From the NCBI GenBank assembly GCA_963726265.1, contig CAVSBQ010000002.1, forward strand, positions 6,486 to 70,485: a stretch of 64,000 nucleotides of DNA. The letters run 5' to 3'. This DNA comes from Candidatus Aenigmatarchaeota archaeon. GTDB lineage: Archaea; Aenigmatarchaeota; Aenigmatarchaeia; QMZP01; QMZT01. Under the pieces are notes generated by a model that saw nothing but the letters and a program-made list of their open reading frames with translations, searched no databases and was not told the DNA's origin. Each line of letters starts with the position of its first letter. Within the stretch, counting starts at the first letter, position 1. The translations under genes were made by a program, and so were the position numbers. Below are positions 7,452-63,487 of the stretch, piece after piece.

Positions 7452-8982
7452 TTAAAGAAGCTCGGCATGCTGCGGTCTGTAGAACGCGATGTGCCTTTCC
7501 CAGGCCTTGCGCTTTTCCGGGTAATCTTCCCTGTAATGCGCCCCCCGCGACTCCTGCCTCGTGAACGCGGCGCGCACTATGAGCTTCGAGACGAGCAGCA
7601 TGTTCCTTATCTCTATGACGTCCGCGTTTATCCCGTTTAAAGCGATTCTTCTCAGCTCCCTCTGCAGCCCGCTTATTTTCTCCAGCGCTGCTTTCAGGCC
7701 GTCCCCGTTCCTCACGATGCCCGCGTCCTGCCACATGATGCCCTTCAGCGCGGTCCTGATTTCGAGCGGCCTCGCCTTCGAAATTTTCAGCTGGTCCGTG
7801 TTTACGAAATCGATGTCCATGCCTATCGCATACGCTCTCGCCGAATCCGCCGAGCGCGAGGAGAACACGAGCGACTCAAGAAGCGAATTGGATGGCAGCC
7901 TGTTCGCGCCGTGAACCTCGGTGCACGCGGCCTCGCCGAATGCGAAGAGACCAGGGATGTTCGTCTTGCCGTCGGTGTCGGTCTTCAGCCCGCCGCACGC
8001 GTAATGCGCGACCGGCTCGACCGGAATCATGGCCTTCGCGATGTCTATGCCGTTCTCCAGGCATTCCTTGTAGATGGCGGGGAACCTGGCCTTAAGGAAG
8101 GCGCTTCCTTTTTTGCGTATGTCGAGATATACGCTCCCTTTATTCAGCTCGCTGAAAATCGCCCTGGCCACCTCGTCCCTGTTCGCCAGCTCTTTGACAA
8201 AGCGTTTCCCGTTCGCGTCCTTCAGCTTCGCTCCCTCGCCGCGCAGCGACTCGGATATCAGGAAGAACGGCTTCCCTTTCCTTCTCATCGCCGTCGGGTG
8301 GAACTGGACGAACTCCATGTCCTCGACCTCGCAGCCGGCGCGGAAGCCCATAGCGACACCGTCGCCGGTCGCGATTTCCGGGTTCGACGTGTTTTCGTAG
8401 ACCCCGCACAGCCCGCCAGTCGCGACAGCGACGGCTTTCGCAAAAAAATCCTCGACCTTCGAATTCCCGATATCGAACACCCGCGCCCCTATGCACTTCC
8501 CTTTTTTCAAGTATCAACTCAAAAGCGAGATGCTTCTCAAAAATGCGTATTCCGTTGTCTTTCGCGGCGGCTATCATCGCTTTCTCTATTTCCGCGCCCG
8601 TCATGTCGCCGCGGTGGACTATGCGCTTTCTCGAATGGCCGCCTTCCATGCCTAACTCGAAACCGCCCGCCTTCGAATCCCGGTCGAACCTCGCTCCCGT
8701 CGACATGAGCCTCTCGATTTCTTCCGGCGCCTGCTTCACCATGAGTTCCACGGCTTCCCTATCGCACAGGCCATCCCCCGCTTCAAGCGTGTCCTTCACG
8801 TGCAAGGCGAAGCTGTCCTTCTTTGAGAAAACGGCGGCGATCCCGCCCTGCGCGAAGTTCGTGTTCGATTCAAGCGCGTCCTTCTTGGTCACTAGGCAGA
8901 CGCTCCCGAACTCCCTCGCCCGAAGCGCGAAGTTGAGGCCCGCAATCCCAGAACCAATCACCAGAAAATCGGACTTTATCAT
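7452..8982 (-). pseudogene. nadB: L-aspartate oxidase (NadB), one frame disruption in a homopolymer
   Basis: The N-terminal part reads DFLVIGSGIAGL...NFAQGGIAA. The C-terminal part reads FVQFHPT ... ESRGAHYREDYP. The two frames meet at the T6/A6 run 8502-8507. Removing one A gives ELILEKGKCIGARV. Confidence 0.88.
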
Positions 8983-12467: not shown

Positions 12468-12547
12468 AAAACGAAGTGTTATATGATAACTTTATATACT
12501 TTATAATTTATATTATAAAATCATAAAAATGTGATTTTGTGATATGT

Positions 12548-13180
12548 ATGAAAAAGGATATCATACTTAAAAAATTGTACCTCGATGGCAAAGATTTCGT
12601 CACTTCAGGCGATATCAAGGAATATTGCGCTTCCCTGGAACTGAAATATGATTCCACGTTCAGATATTTGCTTTCGAGAAAATATCTAATAAGAATTTTC
12701 AAGGGCGTATTCTACCTGAAAACGCTCGACGAGACAAAGTTCGGAAGAAACAAATACAGCCCTCTTGAACTGGTTGCAAAGGGCCTTGAGATGAAAGGCG
12801 TGAAAAAATGGTATTTCGGCCTTTATAGCGCTCTAAAAATGAACAACATGACTCATGAAAATTTCACAGTGGATTACGTAATGAATGACAAGATATTCAG
12901 GGCGAAACCCATGGAAATAGCGGACTCTAAATTCAGATTCCTGAAGATCAGGGACAACCTGCTCGATTTCGGGATTATAGGCGATAAAATAAGGCATTCC
13001 GACCCAGAAAAAACAATTCTCGATTTCATCTACATCTGGCGTTATAACGGAATACCGGAAGATAAAATAATAATGGACATATCGGAATATTCAAAGAACG
13101 CCTCGCGAAAAAAGCTTGCAGATTACGCGAAAAAATACCCCAAATCGGTAAGAATGATTACGGATAAAGTGGTTGGATGA
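12548..13180 (+). CDS. AbiEi-like antitoxin / wHTH regulator (type IV TA family)
   Basis: The region is low in GC. LIRIFKGVFYLKT, WYFGLYSALKMNNMT and HSDPEKTILDFIY match the AbiEi-family pattern. It overlaps the downstream NTase gene by 4 nt. Confidence 0.7.
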   Translation: MKKDIILKKLYLDGKDFVTSGDIKEYCASLELKYDSTFRYLLSRKYLIRIFKGVFYLKTLDETKFGRNKYSPLELVAKGLEMKGVKKWYFGLYSALKMNNMTHENFTVDYVMNDKIFRAKPMEIADSKFRFLKIRDNLLDFGIIGDKIRHSDPEKTILDFIYIWRYNGIPEDKIIMDISEYSKNASRKKLADYAKKYPKSVRMITDKVVG

Positions 13181-14058
13181 GAAAGGATTTCGTGAACGAG
13201 GTCGCAAAAAAACTGAAAATAAAAAGAAAAGACCTCGTGGAGAAGGATTTTATCCTGCACCAGCTTCTTTCGAGCCTTTCAGAGGACAAATTCTTCCGTG
13301 AAAACTTCCTGTTCAAAGGGGGCACGTGCCTTATCAAATGCTATTTGGGATATTTCAGGTTCTCTGAAGACATGGATTTCACCTGGAAAAAACAAGAGGC
13401 GTTTAAGGGGAGGTCACAGAAGGCAATAAGGCGCCACCTCTCGGAAATCATAAACGCCGTGGGAAAATTGCTTGAAAAAGCGGCAAAGGAGAACGGCCTT
13501 GATTTCCGGTGCGACAAGAAAGACAGGCATTACGTTGAGCTTGGCGGAGGAAACAAAATCGTCACCTTCAAGATGTGGTACGCTTCCGGATTCCTGAACC
13601 GCGAATCCTTCGTGAAAATCCAGATAAATTTCCTCGAAAACCTGCATTTCCCAGGCGTTAAAAAACCCGCAAAGAGCTTATTGGAAGCAGGCAAACAAAC
13701 CGATGAAATCCGGTTGCTCTTTCCGGATGAGTTCAAACAATATTCAAAAAGAGTAGCATTCGATATTTACGATATCAGGGAAATACTGTGCGAAAAAATA
13801 AGGGCCATGCTCACCAGAAAAGGAACGAAAGCGAGGGATTTCGTCGACGTATACCTGATTTCCAAAAAATTCGGCATCAGACCAGAAAGCCTCGAAAAGG
13901 TAATCGAGGAAAAGATCACGTTCATGATGAAGCTCTATTCGAAATATAAAAACAACATCAGCGAAAAGAGACGCCTGCTGGAAACACTGCAGGAAACCCG
14001 AACGTTGTCTATGAGACTGATTACGTTGACACCACGAAGCCCCACACGGAGAAGGTAG
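13177..14058 (+). CDS. AbiEii/DUF1814-family nucleotidyltransferase toxin; the 3' end runs into foreign (giant-gene) sequence
   Basis: FLFKGGTCLIKCYLGYFRFSEDMDFTW is the NTase core of AbiEii. After ~aa 270 (about 13,985) both GC content and sequence switch to the giant-protein repeat read out of frame (...TLSMRLITLTPRSPTRRR*). Confidence 0.7.
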   Translation: MRKDFVNEVAKKLKIKRKDLVEKDFILHQLLSSLSEDKFFRENFLFKGGTCLIKCYLGYFRFSEDMDFTWKKQEAFKGRSQKAIRRHLSEIINAVGKLLEKAAKENGLDFRCDKKDRHYVELGGGNKIVTFKMWYASGFLNRESFVKIQINFLENLHFPGVKKPAKSLLEAGKQTDEIRLLFPDEFKQYSKRVAFDIYDIREILCEKIRAMLTRKGTKARDFVDVYLISKKFGIRPESLEKVIEEKITFMMKLYSKYKNNISEKRRLLETLQETRTLSMRLITLTPRSPTRRR

Positions 14059-17000
14059 TCACGGGCCCGCAGGAACCAGGCACTGGCAACATCCACAAAT
14101 ACATAACCAACAACACAGTGATAGAGCTCACGTGCACTGACCAGCAGCCACACCCATCAGACCATGTGACCCTTAACTGGCAACTCTACTGGAGCCAGAG
14201 CTGCGTCGAGCCGAATTGGCAGCCGATAGACAGCGGCAGCGAGACTGACGGCAACGTTCAGTTAACGAACCTTGAAGATTCGTGCCACAAGCTTGTCTAC
14301 TACTGCGCGGACATCCTTGGCAACACGGAAGACACGCAGGTCGAGATAGACGCGGTCGACAACAAATACCCGCTTGTGCACAAGGATGTCGGCCAGTTCA
14401 AGTATCCGTATTCAGGCGCACCTTTCATGTACATAGAAGCCTACGATGTTGAGGACGCACCTGTGTATGTGACGCAGGGGACCCCGATAACACTGACATG
14501 CGAAGACCAGAACCCGCACCCGGTCGACCAGGTCAAGATATACTACAAATATTACGTGGACGGGATAATCAACGATACGCAGGGCGAGGACTGGACCCTT
14601 TACGGCGGCCAGTTCACTTACCCAGAGGACACATACCACGAGCTGTATTATTATTGCATAGACAAGCTCGGCAACAAGGGACCGACGCACGTCGAGATGG
14701 ACATAGTCGACACGCAGAAACCCCAGACTGTGAAGACCATCACTGGTCCGCAGTTCAACGGCCAGGGCAACATACACAAGTACATAACGAAAGATTCGGT
14801 AATTGACCTTACATGCACGGATCCGCAGCCTCATCCGGTAGACCACGTAACCCTTAACTGGAAACTCTACTGGAGCCAGAACTGCGTCGAACCTTTATGG
14901 ACGCAGATAGGCAGCGGCAGCGAGACTGACGGCAACGTTCAGTTAACGAACCTTGAAGATTCGTGCCACAAGCTTGTCTATTACTGCGTCGATGCCCTGA
15001 ACAACATTGAAAGCACTCAGGAAGAAATAGACGCGGTCGACAACCAGGCGCCGAACGGCACCAAGAACGTCGGCAACCCGGCTATACCTTGCATTCAGAT
15101 GCCACCCGTTGACGGACCTGGTTTGACGATGACAGTTGCACCGCAGCCCGACTGCTACTGGGTCCGCGACCACGTCACAAACATAACGCTTGACTGCACT
15201 GACGCACAGCCTCACCCAATCGGCGGAGAGGTAATGTGCTACCAGATAAAGTTCGACGGCGAAACCTCAGACCTTACACAGCAATACTGCACGCAGTTCG
15301 GCGGCAAGATGGAAGACGGATGGTGCTGCGCTGACGTAGCAGGCGAAAAGAGCTACAAATTCGACTTCCAGGAAGATTCCGTTCACACGCTTGAATACTA
15401 CTGCAAGGACGCTTTCAACAACCAGAACCTGAAAGACCTTGAGACGTTCAAGGTCGATTCAGTCCCGCCAACGACGATAAAGACGTACATCAATCCGTTC
15501 TACGTGGACCCGCAGACAGGCTATCATTACATAGACACGGCATCGAGGGTCAATCTCACGGCGACTGACGGCGGAGCCATCTGCCACGTCGAAGGCATGA
15601 CGACATACTACTGGTACACGGTCGTACCTGATAACTATTGCACGGGAGCATGCGCCCCGATGGAGCACAAGGAATGGAGCGTCTACTCCGAGCCCTTCGG
15701 AATCCCGGAGGAATCGTGCCACCTTATAGAGTTCTACAGCGTGGACGCGCTGGGCAACAAGGAGCAGAAGCACTACCAGTGTGTGTTCGTCGACAAGAAG
15801 GCGCCTGTGACGACGAAGAGCTACGGGACCCCGAGATATCCAAACGATGCGTTGCATCCGAAGTGGATAAACTCCAGCACGGACATAACGCTGACGGCCG
15901 TGGACCAGACGCCACATCCGTCCGGAGTCAAGGAATTGAATTACAGGGTAACCCTTGTGGACAAAGACTATTGCGAGAACACTGAGCTTTGCCTGCGCGG
16001 AGTGCCAGGCCTCGACAAAGCGTACGACAAGGCATCGCCATTGCTTTATGGCGTTGATGGCAGCGCGAGCTACACGTTCAGGATACCCGACGACTCGTGC
16101 CACATGATAGAATACTACAGCGTAGACAATGTTGGCAAGACAGAACCGGTCAGAAGACAGTGCGTATACGTGGACAACCTGCCGCCGAATTCGACGAAGA
16201 CTTTCGACGGCTTCAACATGACATGCGACCAGCTGCCCTGCAAGAGCGCGGGCGACTGCAACTACTACATAAACAAGGACACGAAGATAGTCCTGAGCTG
16301 CACAGACCAGAACCCGCACCCGGTCGACCAGGTCAAGATAATGTACAGATACTTCCTGGACGACGTAATCAATGCAACGCAGGGCAAGGACTGGACCTTA
16401 TACGATCCGCAGAATCCGATACAATACAATGAAGATTCAAAGCACACTCTCGAATGGTACTGCGAGGACGCCCTCGGCAACAGGGAAACGACTCACACCC
16501 AGGTAGAGAGAGTAGACACGACCCCGCCGACAACGGTCAAGACGTTCAGCGGCCCGACATACCCGTTAGACGAGGCTAATCCCAACTACTGGGTGACATC
16601 GGACACCGCGATAACGCTGACGACGACTGACGGCGGACCGATATGCGCGGCAGGACCTGCAACACTTTATTATCAGGTGTGGTGGGACTCCAACTGCGAC
16701 GGAACTGTCGACACTAAACAGGTGGACAGCCACGTGCACACGGACGCGAACTGCAACCTCAACAAGACATTATATCTTCAGAAGGAATGCCTTCACGAGA
16801 TAAAGTGGCATGCAGTTGACGCGCTCGGCAACGTCGAGACAGAGCACGTGCAGTTCCACAAAGTCGACAACACTCCTCCGCACGTCCTGATACTGAAGCC
16901 GGTTGACGGCTGGTATTCTGACGGCGAGGACATAGCGATTGTCACTGAAGCCGAAGACCTGAACAACGTGAACAGCTCTTGCGAACAGAGAGGCGGTGTT

Positions 17001-20000
17001 TGCGATGTGATAGGCATCGGCATATCCTGCGGCAATCCGAACGACTGCAACGGCCTTGGTACAAACTGCGCGGTCGGCATAGCCGAGGATGCGCAGTGCT
17101 ACGCGTACCTTGTCGACGTTGAGAGGACGATTGACAACATAAGGGACAAGAAGATACAGCAGATAATGATAGAGAACATGTCGCTTGACACTGACGGCAC
17201 GCTGCTTTACAACAAGGCAACCAAGCAGTGCGAAGGCTACGCCACAATCCCGGCCGAGAGCGGTCTTGAGGATGGCATAAAGATACTTGTCGTCGGAGTC
17301 GCGGACAACCTGCACAACTACGCAGACAGCCTTGACGAGATAGGCAGGGCCATAAACGAGAGATGCGGCTGCGACGTCTTCGACATGTGCGACAGCGAAT
17401 GCGTCAGGGACGCATTGCAGGACATAGTATTAATATGGAACCTGCCGAAGATCGGCATAGACAACCACGCTCCAGTCGTGGAGATAACTGCGCCTTCAGA
17501 GAACTCGCTGTTCGGCGGCGAACAGGTATACGTTAGCGCCGAAGTGAGCGATTCCGAGAGCGGCCAGGTAACCTCGACGATAACGAGCGGCACGCCATGC
17601 TACATAACGCTTGGCGGCGTCTCGATGGGATCTGTCCCGTACCAGAACGACGCGAGAAAATGCGCGGGAACCATAATGATACCCGAGGACAACGACTTCC
17701 CGCAGGGAACGCAGAGCCTCGAGGTTAGTGTAGCCGACAACGCGGGCAACATCGGAAGCGATTCGATAAACGTTAACGTTGACACTACAAAGCCGGAAAT
17801 ATACGTCGACTACCCTGATGAAAACATGTTCGTAAAGGGCACGGTCGGCGTAGAAATTGTGGTCAGAGACTCCAACCTTCCCGGCGAGCCGACATCGTCA
17901 GACCCGAAAGACCTGCACGAATACGTCGAGGTCTCCACGGACAACGGCCAGACATGGGAAGTAACCGAGAACTGCGCCTACTGGGGCGTTGGCCACTACA
18001 AATGCACTTACAGCTGGGACACGACCAGCGAAACTGACGGCATGGCATACGGCATAGTCGCGCAGAATGACCGACCTTGCCGACAACACGCAGATACTCC
18101 GAGGCCGTGCTCGTGATAGTCGACAACGGCGCGCCGGAAGGCGTGTACATGGTCGACCCGGTCAAGGACAAGATAGTGCAGGGCACGATAACGCTTAAAG
18201 CGCTCGCCACGGATTACGTGAGCGGCGTGACAGGCGTCAATATATACGTCAACAGCGTCCCGTCATTCAATTGCGTTGCAACATTAGTTGGCGGGACATG
18301 GCAATGCAGTTTCAACAGCGCGACATTGCCTGACGGACAGCACAGCGCATATGCGGTTGCGACTGACAAGCTTGGTCAGACAACGACATCGGCGAGCGTG
18401 CCGTTCATCATTGACAACAACGCGCCAAGCACCCCCGTGCTTAGCATATACCCGACAACGAATGGCTACGACACCGACGGCGTGGTGACATGGAAATGGA
18501 CTGACGCTACGGATGCCGGTTCAGGCATAGATTATTATGTAATAGAAATAGGCAGCCCCGTCGTGTACCAGAGCAAGGTCTTTGGAACAATATTCACCAT
18601 AAGCGACCTTTCAGAGACGTCTCATTGCGCAAAGGTAAAGGCTGTCGACAAGGCGGGCCATGAAAGCGCATGGTCAAGTACAGCATGCACAATAGTTGAC
18701 AAGACACCGCCGTCACCGGTCAGCATAGGCGTTGACACGGAGACTGTGGACAAATTTGCCGGCGGAGTCTACTACGACAGGGACGGCGAATTCGACGTGA
18801 TCTGGAGCGGTGGCAGCGACGCGAAGTTCGACCACTTCCAGCTTTACGAGAACGGCGCCGGCGAATACCAGGACACGAACTACAGGTCAACTAGATTCAA
18901 GGAAGACGGAACATACAAATATTACGTGACCTCGAACGACCTTGCAGGCTGGACGACCAAATCAGGCGAAGTCACGGTCGTGGTTGACACGCACGCGCCA
19001 GTCGTGGACATAACAAACATGTATCCGGGAATAGGATTCTTCCTGTTCACGTACACGGCCACCGACGCTGACCCGAGCTCTGGCATAGACTCGCTGGTAG
19101 TCAGCGGCATAGAAGGGCCGGCCTACGGCATTTGCTCAGGAACGCTTCCGACTGGCTTCTGCACGGTGTTCATGGGAACAGCGGCGAAGCTGACAGCATG
19201 CGACAAGGCAGGCAACTGCGGCTACGACACGACACTCGGAAACCACGCTGACATAACGCCACCGACAATAATCTACTCTTCACCCAGCGGCGTGATAAAG
19301 TACAACCAGGTCACAATTAACGTAACCACGGACGAGGCTGCAAGCTGCTACTACAGCGATGTCGACGACCTTGAAGGCATGGATGACATGATCAGCAACG
19401 ACATGATACATCACTCGGTCAGCCTAGGCACGCTTGCGGACGGCCTGTACGTCTACCACGTGCAGTGCGAGGACATGTCGGGCAACATGATGGACCACTC
19501 GAAGACGATAGTCTTCTACGTGAACACCGACAGCCAGTATTGCTACAGAACAGAAGAACTTAAGGCGGGATGGAACACGTTCTTCCTGCCGCAGCTTGTC
19601 TTGGACGACATCAACTTCAACTGCGGTAGCAAGCCGTACGCGACTGAAGACGTGCTGAGTTCAATGGAAGGCAAGTATAGCATAATCTGGTACTATGATG
19701 GTCAAAACTGGCTTTCATATGACCCGATGTATCCGGAATACTCGACACTTACGCAGTTCAACGACCAGTTAAGTAATCCATACTACATAAAGCTGACCGA
19801 GCCTGTGAAGCTCGGCTTACAGTGTGACCAGGGATGTCAAAAGGAAGTGACAGGCGGCCAGTGCGTCGAAGGCGAGCAGCCTTCATGGGCGATATACAAG
19901 GACGGTCTTTACTGGGCATGGGCTTCGCCTTGCGACGGCGGATGCAGCCAGGCATATCCGAACAACGTTCCGGGATGGAGATACGCTACTGTAGAAGAAT

Positions 20001-20401
20001 GGGCCAACAGGCCTCTCAAGAGCGACTTCCTGGTGAATGACATCCTGATATGTGGGTCACAGTATTTCGACAACTATCACACTCATTGCGACTATGAAAA
20101 CCCTGAGGTCAGAGTTCCTTACGGCGGCTATTACGAGCTGTGGTTCGTGACAGACTGCACGAACACCCCGGTATGCGGCAACGACGTGACTGAGATAGGG
20201 GAGGAGTGCGACGATGCCAACACAGTCAATGGTGATGGCTGCTCGGACACGTGCCTGATTGAAAGCGCCGAAAGAAGCATGTCCCCTGAGATAAACACCT
20301 ATGTATGTGATGACGGAATAGACAACGACGGCAATGGCCTTATAGACTGCGCTGACCCGGGTTGCACTTACAATACCTATTGCTACGGGGGAGATGTCTA
20401 A
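13995..20401 (+). CDS. giant extracellular protein (~2,100 aa) of tandem Ig-like modules with Cys-rich C-terminal repeats; 5'-truncated, two adjacent frame disruptions at ~18,060-18,100
   Basis: At least 12 modules of ~105 aa follow the pattern VDxxxPxT...LTCTDxxPHPVDxV...EDSxHxLxYYCxDxLGNxE. The reading frame is open from 13,950, with no start codon or signal peptide. ORFs 14118-18116 and 18077-20401 join through a short third-frame segment (RMTDLADNTQ). The C-terminus carries CGNDVTEIGEECDDANTVNGDGCSDTC (a DUF4215-type Cys repeat) and DDGIDNDGNGLIDCADPGC. Confidence 0.8.
14231..14299 (+). repeat. 69-nt exact intragenic repeat (second copy at 14912-14980) within ~230-nt near-identical module cores
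   Basis: The string cagcggcagcgagactgacggcaacgttcagttaacgaaccttgaagattcgtgccacaagcttgtcta is identical at both positions. A second 37-nt exact pair lies at 14504-14540 and 16304-16340. Confidence 0.9.
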
Positions 20402-20491
20402 ATCCCCATTCCTCTTTTATTCACTGTTCAGGAGGAAAAATAATCCGAAAGGTATATAAAGATAGATTACATATAAAAAGTAAGGTAAAAT

Positions 20492-21691
20492 ATGAAAAAT
20501 AACTTCGCTTTATCCGGAATCGTTTTTATAACACTTGTTTCAATTTTTTCGAGTTCAGCTTTCGCAACGCCATCATGCGTTTTTGCCGGCAACGTTACAG
20601 TAAACGGGAACGCTGTAGCCGGAAATAGCGTTCACGCCTATCTCAACGGAACAGGAGAGTACCTGGCGACCGGAATTCCTGGCTATCCAGATGGTAAATA
20701 CAACATTCCGATTGAAGGCAATGATGGCAAATACATCATATTCAAGGTTGAAAATAGCAGCCTTCCGTTCAACAACACGGTCGAACAAGGACCCCAACTC
20801 TGTAACAATCCTAACAATTATACAATTGTTCATCTGACTGTTGTTGATGATGACAGCGATGGTTATGCGCCACCGGAAGACTGCAACGACAACGACGCAG
20901 CGATCCATCCCGGCGCGACCGAGCTCTGCAACGGCATTGACGACAACTGTAACGGACAAATTGATGAAGGCTCATATTATTGCGACAACGATGGCGATGC
21001 TTATGTTAGCAAAGTCCTTGGCAGCTGCACCGTAGGCAAGAGCTGCGGGACGACCGCTGGAAACGACTGCAACGACGGCAATGCTGCGATTCACCCCGGT
21101 GCGACTGACCTCTGCGATGGCATAGACAACGACTGCGACGGCATCGATAATGGATGCGGCGGCGGTGGCGGAGGGGGCGGCGGAGGCGGTGGCGGAGCCA
21201 GCGCTTACTGCGGTGACGGAATCCTCCAGAAATACAGGGGAGAGGAATGCGAAGCGGATTCGGACTGCGAGACTGATTTTGTTTGTAATACCACATGCAG
21301 CTGCGTGCCATGCACTGAGTCATGGAACTGCGGAGCCTGGGGCGAATGCTCAACAGGCGGCGTGCAGACGAGAACCTGCACCGATGCGAATGCATGCGGC
21401 ACGACCCTGCAGAAGCCTACCGAGAGCCAGACGTGCACGACAGGCGGCAGCGGCTCATCTTCAACGACGCCGCTGACTGTCGTTTGCGGCAACGACGTAT
21501 GCGACGAAGGCGAGACCTGCGAGACGTGCGAAGAGGACTGCGGCGCATGCGCTGGCGCAACGAACCAGGGACTCCTGGGCGGCATCACGGGCATGTTCAT
21601 GGGAACCCAGGGAGCTGCGATGCTCGGCCTGATGGCGCTGCTGATAGTGCTGCTCCTGCTTTTGCTGACCATGAAGAGAAAAAAGAAGTAA
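20492..21691 (+). CDS. secreted, C-terminally membrane-anchored Cys-rich protein with MopE-type putative metal-binding motifs and a Gly13 tract
   Basis: It has a signal peptide (FITLVSIFSSSAFA). DCNDNDAAIHPGATELCNGIDDNCNGQIDEG occurs about twice. A run of 13 Gly lies at 21158-21196. CGNDVCDEGETCETCEEDCGAC is present. The C-terminal TM segment is followed by KRKKK. Confidence 0.8.
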   Translation: MKNNFALSGIVFITLVSIFSSSAFATPSCVFAGNVTVNGNAVAGNSVHAYLNGTGEYLATGIPGYPDGKYNIPIEGNDGKYIIFKVENSSLPFNNTVEQGPQLCNNPNNYTIVHLTVVDDDSDGYAPPEDCNDNDAAIHPGATELCNGIDDNCNGQIDEGSYYCDNDGDAYVSKVLGSCTVGKSCGTTAGNDCNDGNAAIHPGATDLCDGIDNDCDGIDNGCGGGGGGGGGGGGGASAYCGDGILQKYRGEECEADSDCETDFVCNTTCSCVPCTESWNCGAWGECSTGGVQTRTCTDANACGTTLQKPTESQTCTTGGSGSSSTTPLTVVCGNDVCDEGETCETCEEDCGACAGATNQGLLGGITGMFMGTQGAAMLGLMALLIVLLLLLLTMKRKKK

Positions 21692-22506: not shown

Positions 22507-23109
22507 TCATTTGCCGAACAGGGGCTTTGTTTTTGCCTCTATTTTTTTTGCCCCCCTTATGCCCTCTATCCTTTTCAGATATTCGGCCAGCTTCTCCTTT
22601 CTGACTTTTTTCGCCAGTTCAGGCAGGATTTCGTCAAGGAACGGATAGTTGCAATATATCAGGTCTATCAGCGTTTTTTCCGGGTCGGAAACCCTTATCC
22701 AGTCCTTCGCCTCTTCCATGTATTCTGTTTCGTATCCGAAATATAGCTTCTTGCTTATGCTCCGGATTATCACATTCCTTCCGGCGACGACCCTTTCTCC
22801 GACCTTTATTTTCAGCGGCGCACGCGTAGTCAGAACATCGACGTTCGGAATCTGGTCCCATACGCCATGAATGAATGCCGCTGTCCCGAGACCCACGTAC
22901 GCTTCGCCTAGCGGTATGACTATCAGATAAGGCGAATTCCTGAACGAATACCATCCCTTTATCAGCTCAATTATCCTGCCCCTTTTCTTCAGGTTGTGAA
23001 TGAAAACCTTGGCGTAATTTTTTCCCATCCTGCCTTCAATGGTCCTGAAGCTGAATGCGCTGGCATTCTCCAGCTTTTCAGTGAACTCCCTGTAATTATT
23101 TTTCAGCAT
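22507..23109 (-). CDS. AbiEi-like antitoxin / wHTH protein (second copy)
   Basis: IIELIKGWYSF, AYVGLGTAAFIHGVW and VSDPEKTLIDLIY parallel the protein at 12548-13180. The gene lies downstream of its NTase partner and overlaps it by 14 nt. Confidence 0.65.
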   Translation of the reverse strand: MLKNNYREFTEKLENASAFSFRTIEGRMGKNYAKVFIHNLKKRGRIIELIKGWYSFRNSPYLIVIPLGEAYVGLGTAAFIHGVWDQIPNVDVLTTRAPLKIKVGERVVAGRNVIIRSISKKLYFGYETEYMEEAKDWIRVSDPEKTLIDLIYCNYPFLDEILPELAKKVRKEKLAEYLKRIEGIRGAKKIEAKTKPLFGK

Positions 23110-23743
23110 ACATCTTCACCTTTCTGACCATCGTTTCAAATTCCGGAGCTTTGCCGATAAGAATAAGCTCTTTCAGGCCGCTAAAATCTGCAGGCGGCGC
23201 GTTGAGGAATGGCAGCACGCCTTTAATGGTGGTCTTGGCTTCCGGGCCAGTCGCATTGTCCAGCAGATAGAAAATGTCATACAAATCCCTGACCTTGCCC
23301 CTGTCTTTGAAAGCGTCGATTTTTTCTCTGATCAGTTCCTCCGGCGGCAGGGTTTTTAAAACTATGGAATCGCCGCCCACGAGATGAAATTCGCCATCTG
23401 CCGTGCATGTATTTTTGAATGAAGGCGAGGCATTCAGCTCGACTTCTATGCCGTTTTCCATGAATCTCGCATATAAGACATTCGAACTCGTCAGCTTGCC
23501 CCTCGTCATTCCGAACGCCTTTGTTTTTTCGAAGTATTTCAATATTTCGGACGGGTCGGAGTAATATATGTCGATATCGAACGAGAATCTCTTGCCTTTG
23601 TAAACTCTCCATATTGCCGTGCCTCCGTGCAGGACGATCTCGAATTTTGAAACCAGTTCTATTACAAGCTTGTCCTGCAATTCTGCGATTTTCAACATCT
23701 TCCCTTTCAGTATGTTCTTCAGCGGAAATTTTTCATAACTCAT
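23096..23743 (-). CDS. AbiEii/DUF1814-like nucleotidyltransferase (second copy, short form)
   Basis: IVLHGGTAIWRVYKGKRFSFDIDIY is the NTase core and VRDLYDIFYLL is the C-terminal motif. The protein is 215 aa. Confidence 0.65.
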   Translation of the reverse strand: MSYEKFPLKNILKGKMLKIAELQDKLVIELVSKFEIVLHGGTAIWRVYKGKRFSFDIDIYYSDPSEILKYFEKTKAFGMTRGKLTSSNVLYARFMENGIEVELNASPSFKNTCTADGEFHLVGGDSIVLKTLPPEELIREKIDAFKDRGKVRDLYDIFYLLDNATGPEAKTTIKGVLPFLNAPPADFSGLKELILIGKAPEFETMVRKVKMYAEK

Positions 23744-23758
23744 GTTTAATATATACGT

Positions 23759-23780
23759 GGGTTATATTTAAATATAACCC
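23759..23780. promoter_or_regulatory. perfect 22-bp palindrome GGGTTATATTTAAATATAACCC upstream of the NTase/AbiEi-like operon; candidate operator overlapping a TATA-like box
   Basis: The palindrome is seen directly. It lies 16-37 nt upstream of the ATG at 23743 on the minus strand. Confidence 0.45.
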
Positions 23781-23828
23781 AGGTATAAAATAAGCAGAAA
23801 TTCTCTCTTTTTTATCCGTTACCGGCTT

Positions 23829-24557: not shown

Positions 24558-24577
24558 TATGAAGGAGGAGACGTGCC

Positions 24578-25210
24578 ATGTTTGCGGACGAGTTCAGCGA
24601 GAAGCGCGAGCACATGGTGGCCGACCTGATGGCGAACGGCTACCTCAGGAGCGAGCGCATCATAAAGGTCTTCCTCGAAACGCCTAGGCATGTTTTCACG
24701 GGCGAGGCGAACGAACGCTTCGCCTATGCGGATTATCCAGTTCCCATCCAGTCGGGCCAGACGGTTTCTGCGCCGCACATGGTCGCGTGCATGACGGAGC
24801 TGCTGGAGCCGAAAGCGAAGGACAAAATTCTGGAAATAGGCTCGGGCTCAGGCTACCAGGCTGCGATACTCTCAAGGCTCGTCAGGAAGGTCTACACGGT
24901 CGAGATAGACGAACGGCTTGCCGCCTTCGCGCGCTCGAATCTCAGCAGCGCTGGCATAAGAAACGTCGAAATCATAGCGGCAGACGGCAGCGAAGGCTAC
25001 GCGAAAGCGAAGCCCTATGACAAGATAATCGTGACCTGCGCCACCCCGGAGATATTCGCCCCGTGGCTGAAGCAGCTCAAGACGGGCGGCATGCTCATCG
25101 CGCCGGTGGGCGAAGGATTCTACCAGGAGCTGACACGTATCAAGAAGACGAAAAAAGGCCTCGAAAAGGCTAATTTCGGAGGCTGTGTCTTCGTGCCGCT
25201 GAGACGCTGA
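24578..25210 (+). CDS. pcm: protein-L-isoaspartate O-methyltransferase
   Basis: QTVSAPHMVACMTELL...ILEIGSGSGYQAAILSRLV...VYTVEI gives the Pcm signature and SAM-binding motifs. Confidence 0.9.
   Translation: MFADEFSEKREHMVADLMANGYLRSERIIKVFLETPRHVFTGEANERFAYADYPVPIQSGQTVSAPHMVACMTELLEPKAKDKILEIGSGSGYQAAILSRLVRKVYTVEIDERLAAFARSNLSSAGIRNVEIIAADGSEGYAKAKPYDKIIVTCATPEIFAPWLKQLKTGGMLIAPVGEGFYQELTRIKKTKKGLEKANFGGCVFVPLRR
25174..25206 (+). repeat. 33-bp direct repeat, left copy (last 11 codons of pcm)
   Basis: tttcggaggctgtgtCttcgtgccgctgagacg compares with 26062-26094 tttcggaggctgtgtAttcgtgccgctgagacg at 32/33 identity. The single difference is a synonymous Val codon. Confidence 0.95.
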
Positions 25211-25266
25211 GCAACCGACACATCGGTGTATAGCTGTATTTAAATAAAGGGAACAAAACCTTATTT

Positions 25267-25623
25267 ATGAAAGGCATAGCAGCTGTTGTGAACGCAATAA
25301 AGAAGGAGAAGGCGGTGGAAGCCGTATATCTTTTCGGCTCGCATGCTTCCGGAAAGGCGAAGCCGTATTCTGATATTGATTTATGCGTGATAACCGGTAA
25401 AAGAGCAAAAAAAGAACGCATACTAAGCCACTCATCCGATAAAATCGACACGTGCGTTTTCTGGGACCTCCCGCTGAACATCAGGTTCCGGGTGATGAAG
25501 GAGGGCACACCACTCTATGTCAAAAATGAGCTCGAAATGCACAGGATAAAGGTAAACACAGTGCTTTCCTATCTCGATTTCAAGCCGTTGCTGGCAAGGC
25601 ATTTTTCAAGGTTTTTGACCTGA
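25267..25623 (+). CDS. minimal nucleotidyltransferase (MNT/MntA-type antitoxin)
   Basis: VYLFGSHASGKAKPYSDIDLCV is the GSxxxG...DxD NTase motif. The protein is 118 aa and the region is low in GC. Confidence 0.8.
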   Translation: MKGIAAVVNAIKKEKAVEAVYLFGSHASGKAKPYSDIDLCVITGKRAKKERILSHSSDKIDTCVFWDLPLNIRFRVMKEGTPLYVKNELEMHRIKVNTVLSYLDFKPLLARHFSRFLT

Positions 25624-25635
25624 TAGGTTGATAAC

Positions 25636-26052
25636 ATGTATGACACGGAAAGGATAGGGAAAATACTGAGCGATATTGAAAGATATTTTGCAGACATGGA
25701 GACCATAAACGTCAAAACAATGCAGGATATCGGGGACAAAAAGAACTTCTATTCGGTTTCGATGCTGTTATTCTCGATAATAAACAGGACCATAGACCTC
25801 GGTGAAGAAGTCGTCACAGCCAACAACCTCGGCACACCGAGCACATACAAGGACATTTTTTATCTTCTGAGAAAAGGGAAAATAATAAACGACCAGATGA
25901 AAAATGAGCTTTCAGAATTGACATCATACAGGAACCTTTTTTCCCACGAATACCACAGCTTCACGGAAAAAGACGTGCTCAAGGCAATGGCTAAAATCGG
26001 CGCAGTCAAGGATTTCGTGAAAAGAATAAAATCAAGAATCAGAAGCCAATAA
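25636..26052 (+). CDS. HEPN domain protein (DUF86/HepT-type toxin)
   Basis: The YRNLFSHEY motif (Rx4H) sits in the C-terminal third of a 138-aa helical protein, immediately downstream of the MNT gene. Confidence 0.8.
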   Translation: MYDTERIGKILSDIERYFADMETINVKTMQDIGDKKNFYSVSMLLFSIINRTIDLGEEVVTANNLGTPSTYKDIFYLLRKGKIINDQMKNELSELTSYRNLFSHEYHSFTEKDVLKAMAKIGAVKDFVKRIKSRIRSQ

Positions 26053-26061
26053 ACAAACCAG

Positions 26062-26094
26062 TTTCGGAGGCTGTGTATTCGTGCCGCTGAGACG
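26062..26094 (+). repeat. 33-bp direct repeat, right copy (displaced pcm 3' end; reads FGGCVFVPLRRV*)
   Basis: See 25174-25206. The in-frame remnant is followed by a stop codon. Confidence 0.95.
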
Positions 26095-26097
26095 TGT

Positions 26098-26337
26098 TTA
26101 GACGACAGGTGGAAGAATCTGGGTTTCGAGTGCATCTGGAGAAGCGCCAAGCTCGTCGAGTTCATTTCGTACCATTTTCTTGAAGAGACCATTACTTACC
26201 GGGTCAATTGCCCATACGCTTCTGTTAGGAAAAACCACTATAGGATATTTTCTACCCCGACCTTCGTCTACGTAGAAGCCTAATCGGACTCTACCGTTGT
26301 ATTCTCCTAGTGTCTTTTGAATGCTCATATTTATCAC
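26098..26337 (-). CDS. hypothetical protein
   Basis: Intact 79-aa ORF with no recognised motif. Its stop codon abuts the right direct repeat. Confidence 0.45.
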   Translation of the reverse strand: MINMSIQKTLGEYNGRVRLGFYVDEGRGRKYPIVVFPNRSVWAIDPVSNGLFKKMVRNELDELGASPDALETQILPPVV

Positions 26338-26440
26338 CCCATGTTCGTTTAAGGTTATTTAATTTTATGTTTCAAGGCTATATAAAGCTTTCGTTTTGTT
26401 GTAACTAATAAATAGTGAAAAAGAAAGGAAAAGGGGTTCT

Positions 26441-56085: not shown

Positions 56086-63487
<7,402 letters not shown>

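What the first reader, a model, noticed from the sequence alone, without database searches (positions are those of the whole stretch)
25174..26094. MNT/HEPN toxin-antitoxin cassette bracketed by 33-bp direct repeats that duplicate the 3' end of pcm
The last 33 nt of pcm (25174-25206) recur at 26062-26094 with a single synonymous difference. The second copy still reads in frame as FGGCVFVPLRRV*. The 855 bp between the copies is low in GC and contains only an MNT nucleotidyltransferase and a HEPN (Rx4H) gene. This is the footprint of site-specific integration into a gene's 3' end (attL/attR with restoration of the coding end). No integrase is present, however, so this is either a minimal or decayed integrated element or a cassette mobilised in trans.
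Basis: seen in the sequence. Interest (0 to 1): 0.7.

Follow-up and report, generated by a model that had tools for sequence, protein, structure and literature searches.

The report
Toxin-antitoxin cassette inserted with target duplication
A two-gene toxin-antitoxin cassette sits at the end of a housekeeping gene in a tiny archaeal genome and has duplicated 33 bases of that gene end; related cassettes do the same at this and other gene ends without any integrase, so this is a repeatable but mechanistically unexplained way for selfish genes to move.

Summary
A 33-nt direct repeat (25174-25206 and 26062-26094, 32/33 identical, none expected by chance) brackets an 855-bp low-GC segment. That segment holds only an MntA/HepT (type VII) toxin-antitoxin pair and its own TATA-like promoter.

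The attL/attR integrase reading is only partly supported.
- The closest relative (pcm 84% identical) has an empty site.
- Four other Aenigmatarchaeota lineages (pcm 66-78% identical to the window's) carry a related cassette at the same pcm end. In the three where the far side is visible, the cassette is followed by a copy of that lineage's own pcm terminus (26-66 nt).
- More distant cassette relatives sit at other genes (ribonucleotide reductase, a tRNA synthetase, a formyltransferase, and intergenic or 5' sites). They are hugged by duplications of that local sequence, 15-119 nt long.
- There is no integrase, no terminal inverted repeats, no common core and no fixed repeat length.

This matches "insertion with long target duplication", which the 2010 survey read here reports only for bacterial restriction-modification genes. 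Here the cargo is a toxin-antitoxin pair and the host is a DPANN archaeon.

My preferred mechanism is inferred, not shown: host recombination uses a gene-end copy that travels with the cassette.

The parts
24578..25210 (+). pcm (protein-L-isoaspartate O-methyltransferase), the target gene. It is intact and ends ...GGCVFVPLRR*.
   Evidence: Pfam PCMT 1.9e-58 and NCBIfam PRK00312 230 bits. Orthologues in all related loci end FVPLR(R/K)*.
25174..25206 (+). Repeat copy c1, the functional 3' end of pcm.
25207..25266 (+). Left junction and cassette leader. The junction supplies the last base of the final Arg codon and the pcm stop codon (C TGA, 25207-25210). A TATA-like box GTATTTAAATAAA lies at 25236-25248, about 20-30 nt before the MntA ATG.
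   Evidence: Sequence. The GTATTTAAAT motif is conserved at the same place in L008, L010, L012 and L029, and as TTATTTAAATA in L046. Promoter function is inferred from archaeal TATA-box spacing.
25267..25623 (+). mntA, a minimal nucleotidyltransferase antitoxin (118 aa) with the GS...DID motif.
   Evidence: NCBIfam MntA_antitoxin 6.7e-17; Pfam Polbeta and NTP_transf_2.
25636..26052 (+). hepT, a HEPN RNase toxin (138 aa) with the Rx4H motif RNLFSH.
   Evidence: NCBIfam HepT_toxin 1.5e-16; Pfam HepT-like 3.5e-16. R99 and N100 are invariant and H104 nearly invariant in the 37-member alignment.
26053..26061 (+). 9-nt spacer (ACAAACCAG) between the HepT stop and c2; this is the right edge of the inserted DNA.
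26062..26101 (+). Repeat copy c2 (26062-26094) plus the in-frame relic ending ...RRV* (TAG at 26099-26101). This is the displaced copy of the pcm terminus.
   Evidence: It overlaps the stop codon of the convergent ORFan at 26098-26337.
26098..26337 (-). orf79, the convergent neighbour of c2. It is a low-GC ORFan and is listed as context, not as part of the cassette.
   Evidence: No Pfam or NCBIfam hit. Its only homologue among 5.8 billion proteins is itself. The region 26095-26440 has GC 0.396 and does not align to any relative.

Best explanation
The 855-bp segment is a self-contained, self-promoted MntA-HepT (type VII toxin-antitoxin) cassette. It was inserted at the 3' end of pcm in an Aenigmatarchaeota-like (DPANN) genome, and the insertion duplicated 33 bp of the pcm terminus. 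The left copy keeps pcm functional. The right copy is the displaced gene end.

This is one instance of a family-wide behaviour. Related cassettes in related archaea are repeatedly found at gene ends, tightly bracketed by a duplicated stretch of the local sequence (15-119 bp). They have no recombinase, no terminal inverted repeats, no common core and no fixed repeat length. This is the pattern known as 'insertion with long target duplication'.

The subfamily to which the window's cassette belongs has arrived at the pcm end several separate times in different lineages.

Inferred mechanism: the cassette spreads as DNA together with one copy of the conserved gene end. The host's own recombination machinery inserts it at the matching gene end, and removes it again by recombination between the two copies. 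The stable HepT toxin penalises loss. The illegitimate event that first seeds a new site remains unexplained.
For: Shown:
- The repeat, the gene content and the foreign composition.
- Presence/absence among relatives. A cassette sits right after pcm in W, L008, L010, L012 and L046. It is absent in about 15 other related pcm loci, including the sister lineage L045.
- A pcm-3' duplicate is found only where the cassette is. It is present in 4 of the 4 cassette loci with readable right flanks, and absent from the cassette-free loci tested.
- Each duplicate is own-lineage. W's two copies share the Val codon that is otherwise seen only in its empty-site sister L045.
- L046 has the most distant pcm (66-70% identical to the other hosts), but its HepT is the closest to those of L010 and L008 (79-80%). 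This is incongruent with vertical descent.
- Homologous cassettes at other sites have flanking repeats of local sequence: the RNR 3' end (54-57 nt), an aaRS 3' end, the FTR 3' end (83-119 nt), and 22 nt and 15 nt at 5'/intergenic sites. In all, 8 of 10 contexts score above the 95th percentile of control windows.
- No integrase, terminal inverted repeats or attC-like hairpin were found.

Supporting the idea that a gene-end copy travels with the cassette:
- The target is heritable within a cassette subfamily.
- L044 holds an array of four FTR-end copies separating three different cargos. The inner copies look like a different FTR allele.
- Differences between c1 and c2 are biased towards synonymous changes (12 against 6). 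In L033 all 4 are synonymous, plus one in-frame codon indel.
- c2 often retains a proper in-frame stop.
- W's c1 ends in the canonical RR*, whereas c2 ends RRV*.

Precedent: Furuta et al. 2010 (PMC2853133).
Against: - In W, L010 and L046 the two copies are almost identical and both carry the host lineage's own states. A copy brought in from a divergent donor should leave donor/recipient chimeras.
- The 15-nt and 22-nt repeats (L037, L041) are short for homologous recombination.
- No excised circle, plasmid or virus carrying the cassette was found.
- The event that seeds a new site is not explained.
- The synonymous bias is only marginal (p = 0.03) against the fairer null in which c1 is constrained and c2 is neutral.
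- A sliding-window search for a donor-derived 3' part of pcm was uninformative.
- Only one 64-kb window of a 1.1-Mb genome was searched for recombinases.
Confidence: 0.5

Rival explanations
1. Site-specific recombination in trans. The repeats are attL/attR, and a tyrosine or serine recombinase encoded elsewhere in the genome (or on a helper element) integrates and excises the cassette, as for cis-mobilizable elements.
For: - The structure is formally attL/attR, with the gene end restored. c1 ends in the canonical RR* whereas c2 ends RRV*.
- The same gene end is used in five lineages.
- Several different cargos have accreted at one gene end in L044, as at classical att hot spots.
- The 15-22-nt repeats are typical att-core sizes.
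Against: - No recombinase was found in any cassette, nor among 20 scanned window ORFs.
- Repeat sequences at different sites share no core, and their lengths range from 15 to 119 nt.
- Within the pcm site the repeat boundaries differ between lineages (33, 38, 66 and 26 nt), and both copies carry host-lineage-specific states.
- The 33-mer is absent from IMG/VR.
Confidence: 0.2
2. True target-site duplication at every event. The cassette DNA carries no address. It is captured at a staggered break or by replication template switching, and the host segment between the two joints is copied. The pcm end is simply one of the few permissive spots in a very compact genome.
For: - Both copies are host-lineage-specific and almost identical in W, L010 and L046.
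- Repeat length and cassette edges vary, as expected for an imprecise process.
- Every repeat covers a functional gene end, start or promoter, as expected if only duplicative events survive selection.
- The slot after pcm is variable in all relatives.
Against: - Five hits on the same roughly 60-nt target by one cassette subfamily, while sister subfamilies sit elsewhere, is hard to get without targeting.
- In L044 the inner FTR copies differ from the outer pair.
- The synonymous-biased differences and preserved in-frame stops in c2 suggest that some copies were once functional gene ends from other alleles.
Confidence: 0.2
3. One ancient insertion in the common ancestor, inherited vertically and lost precisely several times by recombination between the copies. 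Gene conversion from pcm would keep c2 similar to c1.
For: - Cassette proteins have diverged about as much as pcm (MntA 73-80%, HepT 70-75%, pcm 72-84%).
- L008 and L012 are sisters and both carry the cassette.
- L032 and L033 are 99.8% identical but differ by a 3-nt patch inside c1, and L033's version equals c2. This shows recombination touching the repeat.
Against: - It needs at least three or four independent precise losses, including in W's sister L045.
- It also needs repeated conversion of a 26-38-nt tract.
- L046 lies in the outgroup clade by pcm, yet its HepT is nested among the others.
- W's cassette is far from compositional equilibrium (GC3 0.55 against 0.76). Cassettes in L037 and L041 match their hosts.
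Confidence: 0.12
4. Assembly or chimera artefact.
For: None found.
Against: - An independently built contig spans both copies with 100% identity.
- The exact identity between the copies is at most 17 nt.
- The same architecture occurs in four other samples and assemblies.
Confidence: 0.01

Closest known systems
Insertion with long target duplication of restriction-modification gene complexes (Nobusato et al. 2000, Gene 259:99; Furuta, Abe & Kobayashi 2010, NAR, PMC2853133)
   Same: - A small addiction-type gene unit with no other mobility gene.
- Flanked by direct repeats of target sequence that are long (over 30 bp) and variable in length.
- The repeat is single-copy at empty sites in relatives and often overlaps the 3' end of the neighbouring gene.
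- The insert has atypical GC and the mechanism is unknown.
   Different: - The cargo is a type VII toxin-antitoxin pair (an RNase and a nucleotidyltransferase), not a DNA-cutting system. This argues against the authors' suggestion that DNA breakage by the cargo drives the event.
- The host is a DPANN archaeon; no archaeal case survived their screen.
- One cassette subfamily recurs at the same gene end in several lineages.
- Some repeats here are shorter than 30 bp.
Integrase-mediated islands at gene or tRNA 3' ends, and their integrase-less derivatives (cis-mobilizable elements of streptococcal ICEs; archaeal SSV/pNOB8-type integration). From my own knowledge.
   Same: - Direct repeats made of the target gene's 3' end.
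- The gene end is restored.
- Empty sites exist in relatives.
- Tandem accretion at one site (L044).
   Different: - No integrase in or near the unit.
- No conserved att core across the family.
- Variable repeat boundaries at the same site.
- Both copies are host-type.
HepT/MntA type VII toxin-antitoxin systems (Yao et al. 2020, PMC7641770) and the noted 'recent mobility' of MNT-HEPN modules (Makarova et al. 2009, PMC2701414)
   Same: - Gene order, sizes and catalytic motifs all match.
- Model scores are above the NCBIfam cutoffs.
- The distribution is patchy, with recent insertions and deletions between close relatives.
   Different: Those papers give no insertion mechanism. Makarova 2009 does not contain the word 'repeats' in its main text. 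The repeat signature reported here is additional.
Site-specific transposons with fixed target duplication at gene ends (casposons at aEF-2 or tRNA 3' ends, Tn7 at glmS). From my own knowledge.
   Same: Insertion just at or after the 3' end of a conserved gene, with the target duplicated.
   Different: Those elements encode their own integrase or transposase, have terminal inverted repeats, and make a fixed duplication (5 or 14-15 bp). None of this holds here.

Membership tests
[quoted passage not shown] | MntA: minimal nucleotidyltransferase with the GSx(n)DxD motif, scoring above the family cutoff | tested here: met
   NF047752 scores 61.3 bits against a cutoff of 60. The sequence contains LFGSHASGKAKPYSDIDL.
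[quoted passage not shown] | HepT: HEPN fold with the Rx4-6H RNase motif, scoring above the family cutoff | tested here: met
   NF047751 scores 60.3 bits against a cutoff of 60. The motif is RNLFSH. R99 and N100 are invariant and H104 nearly invariant in 37 homologues.
[quoted passage not shown] | Adjacent co-directional pair, antitoxin first | tested here: met
   mntA is at 25267-25623 and hepT at 25636-26052, separated by a 12-nt gap.
[quoted passage not shown] | Toxicity of HepT and its neutralisation by AMPylation | not testable with these tools
   Needs expression and biochemistry.
Insertion with long target duplication (criteria of Furuta et al. 2010) | Inserted unit under 20 kb, made of an addiction-type gene complex with no other mobility genes | tested here: met
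   The insert is 855 bp and holds two genes only. The cargo is a toxin-antitoxin pair, not a restriction-modification system, so this is a variant.
Insertion with long target duplication (criteria of Furuta et al. 2010) | Direct repeat longer than 30 bp, unique in the genome | tested here: met
   The repeat is 33 nt and occurs only twice in the window. The rest of the genome was not available. Family members range from 15 to 119 nt.
Insertion with long target duplication (criteria of Furuta et al. 2010) | An empty-site genome in which the repeat is single-copy and both flanks align | tested here: inconclusive
   Empty sites with a single pcm end exist (L045 at 84% aa identity, L009 and others). 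The downstream flank is not alignable at this divergence, and no near-identical strain was found.
Integrase-mediated integrative element (attL/attR) | Tyrosine or serine recombinase in or next to the element | tested here: not met
   None in the cassette, and none among 20 window ORFs of 213-535 aa. The rest of the 1.1-Mb genome was not seen.
Integrase-mediated integrative element (attL/attR) | A conserved att core shared by related elements, with fixed repeat boundaries at a given site | tested here: not met
   Repeats at different sites are unrelated in sequence. At pcm the boundaries give 33, 38, 66 and 26 nt.
Integrase-mediated integrative element (attL/attR) | Excised circular form carrying attP | not testable with these tools
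   No reads were available. The 33-mer is absent from IMG/VR, and there are no cassette relatives in IMG/VR, PLSDB or INPHARED.
DNA transposon / IS / MITE | Terminal inverted repeats and a short target duplication of fixed length | tested here: not met
   The terminal-inverted-repeat alignment score is 11, against a shuffle mean of 12.8. Duplications are 15-119 nt.
Integron gene cassette | attC imperfect palindrome at the 3' end of the cassette, with IntI and attI nearby | tested here: not met
   Single-strand folds of the c2 region are no better than shuffles (z = -0.24 and +1.81). The repeats are coding sequence of the neighbouring gene, and there is no integrase.

The most novel reading that the evidence does not exclude
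MntA-HepT cassettes in DPANN archaea, and perhaps addiction modules in general, may be recombinase-free 'homing cassettes'. Each carries a copy of a conserved host gene end as a portable address. It inserts by the host's own recombination or repair and regenerates the long target duplication each time. This would give a mechanism for the 25-year-old, unexplained 'insertion with long target duplication', and would show that it does not depend on DNA cleavage by the cargo. A more radical variant is that the MntA nucleotidyltransferase itself takes part in mobilisation.
Probability: 0.3. Interest if true: 0.75.

Novelty: new variant of a known kind. Interest (0 to 1): 0.55.

Why it matters
Toxin-antitoxin pairs are described as highly mobile, yet how a bare two-gene module moves is largely unknown. 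The MNT-HEPN literature I read gives no mechanism.

This locus and its relatives provide a tractable natural series. The same small cassette has been inserted at the same gene end in several lineages, with duplications of different lengths and ages, next to empty-site relatives.

The series extends 'insertion with long target duplication' from bacterial restriction-modification genes to an archaeal toxin-antitoxin pair whose proteins do not cut DNA. That narrows the possible mechanisms.

It also shows how very compact DPANN genomes can take up genes without destroying the tightly packed neighbours: the gene end is duplicated.

Tried and rejected
- **Exact look-up of the window's pcm protein.** It was not on record.
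- **Search for a near-identical empty-site strain.** The genome contigs and metagenome-contig scans with pcm found relatives of at most 79% identity. The big protein search found one at 84% (L045), which is empty but too diverged for nucleotide-level junction comparison.
- **The 33-mer in IMG/VR.** No hits.
- **A vehicle for the cassette.** HepT, MntA and a 37-member HepT profile found no relatives in IMG/VR. HepT found no tblastn match in PLSDB plasmids or INPHARED phages.
- **A third, decayed pcm-end copy beyond orf79, and repeats around orf79.** None.
- **Similar repeats around other toxin-antitoxin pairs.** I checked two AbiE pairs in the window, AbiE pairs in L002 and L009, HicAB in L045, and the larger MNT/HEPN-like pairs in L001 and L045. 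None had them.
- **Terminal inverted repeats and an attC-like hairpin.** None.
- **Rfam and tRNA scans of the region.** Nothing.
- **Sliding-window test for a donor-derived 3' part of pcm.** Too noisy at 60-85% nucleotide identity.
- **A decayed prophage or plasmid remnant.** Considered and rejected, because every independent locus is trimmed to the same two genes, with the right repeat usually within 0-19 nt of the HepT stop.
- **Literature searches.** Searches on toxin-antitoxin with direct repeats, and on HepT/MntA with repeats, found no prior description. The phrase 'long target duplication' led to the restriction-modification precedent.
Full report
**1.

pcm occupies 24578-25210 (+). The 33 nt at 25174-25206 recur at 26062-26094 with one mismatch (25189 C / 26077 A, a synonymous Val change). 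No other copy exists in the 64-kb window at up to three mismatches. None of 100 dinucleotide-preserving shuffles gave two matches.

Identity ends abruptly on both sides. The repeat stops 4 nt before the end of the pcm ORF. The left copy is followed by C-TGA, so pcm ends RR*. The right copy is followed by TGTTTAG and reads RRV*.

The 855 bp in between has GC 0.422, against 0.58 for pcm and 0.524 for the window. It encodes only two proteins:
- a 118-aa MntA nucleotidyltransferase (NCBIfam 61.3 bits, cutoff 60);
- a 138-aa HepT HEPN RNase (60.3 bits, cutoff 60; motif RNLFSH).

A TATA-like box (GTATTTAAATAAA, 25236-25248) lies upstream of mntA.

A Logan contig from run ERR10755944 is 100% identical to window 25150-26407 and spans both copies. 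The copies share at most 17 identical bases in a row. Assembly duplication is therefore not an issue.

**2. Organism and synteny**

The closest genomic relatives are MAGs named Candidatus Aenigmatarchaeota (DPANN). The window's own HepT and pcm proteins are on record from a 1,105,251-bp NCBI contig.

The order Rpp30 <- -> pcm ... <- 70-aa secreted protein <- 300-340-aa protein is conserved in about 20 related loci. Homology to the window stops at the pcm stop and resumes at about 26418. The slot after pcm holds different small ORFs in every lineage.

The window's neighbour there, orf79 (26098-26337, minus strand), is a low-GC ORFan.

**3. Relatives with and without the cassette**

Four other lineages carry an MntA-HepT pair immediately 3' of pcm:

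| Locus | Source |
|---|---|
| L008 | Ga0315274 |
| L010 | Ga0315282 |
| L012 | Ga0315285 (contig ends inside mntA) |
| L046 | Logan SRR7614767 |

In all three where the right side is visible, a duplicate of that lineage's own pcm terminus follows the HepT stop:

| Locus | Repeat length | Identity | Start of second copy relative to the HepT stop |
|---|---|---|---|
| L008 | 66 nt | 52/66, one indel | overlaps the stop codon |
| L010 | 38 nt | 35/38 | 0 nt |
| L046 | 26 nt | 25/26 | 19 nt |

None of the roughly 15 related pcm loci without the cassette has a pcm-3' duplicate.

The closest relative of all, L045 (pcm 84% identical), is sister to the window in a neighbour-joining tree. It has an empty site: pcm is followed 5 nt later by a convergent 110-aa ORF. 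L045 shares the window's derived ...GGCVFVPLRR (Val where all others have Ala). Both window copies carry that Val codon. So the window's duplication postdates a change specific to the W+L045 clade.

L046 belongs by pcm to the outgroup clade (66% identical to W, 75% to L002). Yet its HepT is 79-80% identical to those of L008 and L010. Cassette and host histories therefore disagree.

The window's cassette is also far from the host's codon composition (GC3 0.54-0.56 against 0.76). Cassettes elsewhere (L037, L041) match their hosts.

Together this favours several separate arrivals at the same gene end, with the window's being comparatively recent, over one ancient insertion.

**4. The behaviour is family-wide and not tied to pcm**

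The HepT search returned 50 homologues (46-77% identical). The few with a source name are mostly Aenigmatarchaeota. Their contexts show the same two-gene unit at other places:

| Locus | Site | Flanking repeat |
|---|---|---|
| L032/L033 | after ribonucleotide reductase | 54-57 nt of the RNR 3' end, about 90-94% identical; the second copy starts inside the last HepT codons |
| L029/L030 | after a class-I aminoacyl-tRNA synthetase | about 35-45 nt, degenerate; c2 keeps an in-frame alternative ending RKFRQ* against RKFKD* |
| L041/L042 | between secF and an MJ0043-like gene | 22 nt, 20/22, including the downstream gene's ATG |
| L037 | upstream of a SpoIIM-like gene | 15 nt, perfect |
| L039 = L044 | next to FTR 3' fragments | 83-119 nt |
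| L023, L035 | other sites | none |

Eight of ten distinct contexts exceed the 95th percentile of equally spaced control windows, and five exceed the 99th.

In L044 four copies of the FTR 3' end separate three different cargos: MntA-HepT, a 369-aa membrane protein, and AbiEi/AbiEii plus a 110-aa ORF. The outermost copy is the one most like the real gene end (about 86%). The two inner copies resemble each other and are about 77% identical to the gene end.

The repeats at different sites share no motif. There are no terminal inverted repeats and no attC-like fold. No recombinase is present in any cassette or among 20 scanned window ORFs.

Other toxin-antitoxin pairs in these loci (AbiE, HicAB, larger MNT/HEPN pairs) lack such repeats.

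**5. What it is**

Descriptively, this is 'insertion with long target duplication'. Furuta et al. 2010 (PMC2853133), following Nobusato et al. 2000, defined this class for restriction-modification gene complexes in bacteria. Its features are:
- a small addiction unit;
- no other mobility genes;
- long and variable direct repeats of target DNA, often overlapping a neighbour's 3' end;
- an empty site in relatives;
- an unknown mechanism.

They noted that no archaeal case survived their screen. They suggested that DNA breakage by the cargo might be involved.

Here the cargo is an RNase and a nucleotidyltransferase, so that suggestion cannot apply. Makarova et al. 2009 (PMC2701414) recorded recent MNT-HEPN insertions and deletions but no repeats or mechanism. 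I found no paper in the held library describing this signature for HepT/MntA.

**6. How it most likely works**

*Shown:* insertion, duplication, recurrence at one site, presence/absence polymorphism, and absence of cis-encoded recombination functions.

*Inferred:* the cassette travels with one copy of the gene end, and the host's own recombination inserts it at the matching conserved gene end. Recombination between the two copies deletes it precisely. HepT/MntA addiction opposes loss. Evidence in favour:
- The target is heritable within a cassette subfamily (pcm for the 70-80% group; RNR, aaRS and others for more distant groups).
- L044 shows accretion, with inner repeats that look like another allele.
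- Differences between the copies are biased towards synonymous changes: 12 against 6. This gives p = 7e-4 against a neutral expectation, but only p = 0.03 against the fairer null in which one copy is constrained. In L033 all 4 are synonymous, plus one in-frame codon indel.
- In-frame stops are preserved in several second copies.
- The window's left copy has the canonical RR* ending.
- L032 and L033 are 99.8% identical but differ by a 3-nt patch in c1, where L033 equals c2. This shows that recombination does touch these repeats.

*Against:*
- In W, L010 and L046 both copies are host-type rather than donor/recipient chimeras.
- The 15-22-nt repeats are short for homologous recombination.
- No excised or vehicle-borne form was found.
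- The seeding of a new site is unexplained.

The rivals therefore remain open:
- a recombinase acting in trans;
- a genuine duplicative capture at each event;
- one ancient insertion with losses and gene conversion.

**7. Verdict**

The finding is real, and better than a one-off. However, it is neither an integrase footprint nor a decayed island. It is a new variant (a toxin-antitoxin cargo in a DPANN archaeon, with recurrent same-site homing) of a known but mechanistically unexplained mode of gene insertion.

Noticed in passing
window 22507-23743 (-): An AbiEi/AbiEii (type IV toxin-antitoxin) pair lies between the 2-thiouracil desulfurase gene and Rpp30. The same pair occupies this slot in L002, L009 and L014. 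L001 and L045 have a larger MNT/HEPN-like pair there instead. This is a second variable toxin-antitoxin slot, only 1 kb from the pcm slot, and it has no flanking repeats.
   Followed up: partly
window 12539-14058 (+): A second AbiEi-like (213 aa, no Pfam hit but a weak tblastn match to the other AbiEi) and AbiEii (293 aa) pair. It has no flanking direct repeats.
   Followed up: partly
L044 9460-13669 (JGI Ga0494803_0000938): Four copies of the 3' end of the formylmethanofuran-H4MPT formyltransferase gene (FTR, 13566-14456, minus strand) separate three cargos: MntA-HepT, a 369-aa membrane protein, and AbiEi/AbiEii plus a 110-aa ORF. The copy farthest from the gene is the one most like it, so this looks like a nested or en-bloc insertion.
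   Followed up: partly
L045 4144-4737: In the window's closest relative, a HicA toxin gene plus a 118-aa partner sit in the divergent Rpp30/pcm intergenic region. That region is only 20 nt long in the window (24558-24577). No flanking repeat was detected.
   Followed up: partly
window 26095-26440: orf79 (26098-26337, minus strand) and its upstream region form a low-GC (0.40) ORFan segment found in no relative and no database protein. Its stop codon overlaps the relic pcm ending. Its origin is unexplained.
   Followed up: partly
window 7452-8982 (-): A fumarate reductase / succinate dehydrogenase flavoprotein is split into two overlapping ORFs. ORF 8140-8982 matches FAD_binding_2 profile positions 1-176. 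ORF 7452-8510 matches positions 171-414 plus the C-terminal domain. This may be a frameshift, a pseudogene or a sequencing error.
   Followed up: no
window 18077-21691 and 57974-63487 (+): Very large proteins built of dozens of Cys-rich repeats of about 33-60 aa (nucleotide unit ...TGCAACGGCATCGACGACGACTGCAACGG...). They dominate the window's direct-repeat families.
   Followed up: no
window 39897-41156 and 42363-43694 (+): Two paralogous genes with about 120-nt internal repeats (the ...YAVDAKTGKEVWRFKTG... type, resembling a beta-propeller) flank an MFS transporter gene.
   Followed up: no
window 23743-23796: A 27+27-nt near-perfect palindrome (85% complementary, no spacer) lies in the AbiEii/Rpp30 intergenic region. 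A 36-40-nt part of it is about 90% conserved at the nucleotide level in L002 and L003 (blastn matches).
   Followed up: no
L010 2172-2594: The HepT gene of this lineage has an in-frame stop near its 5' end, so only a 120-aa ORF remains. The toxin may be decaying while the cassette and its repeats persist.
   Followed up: no
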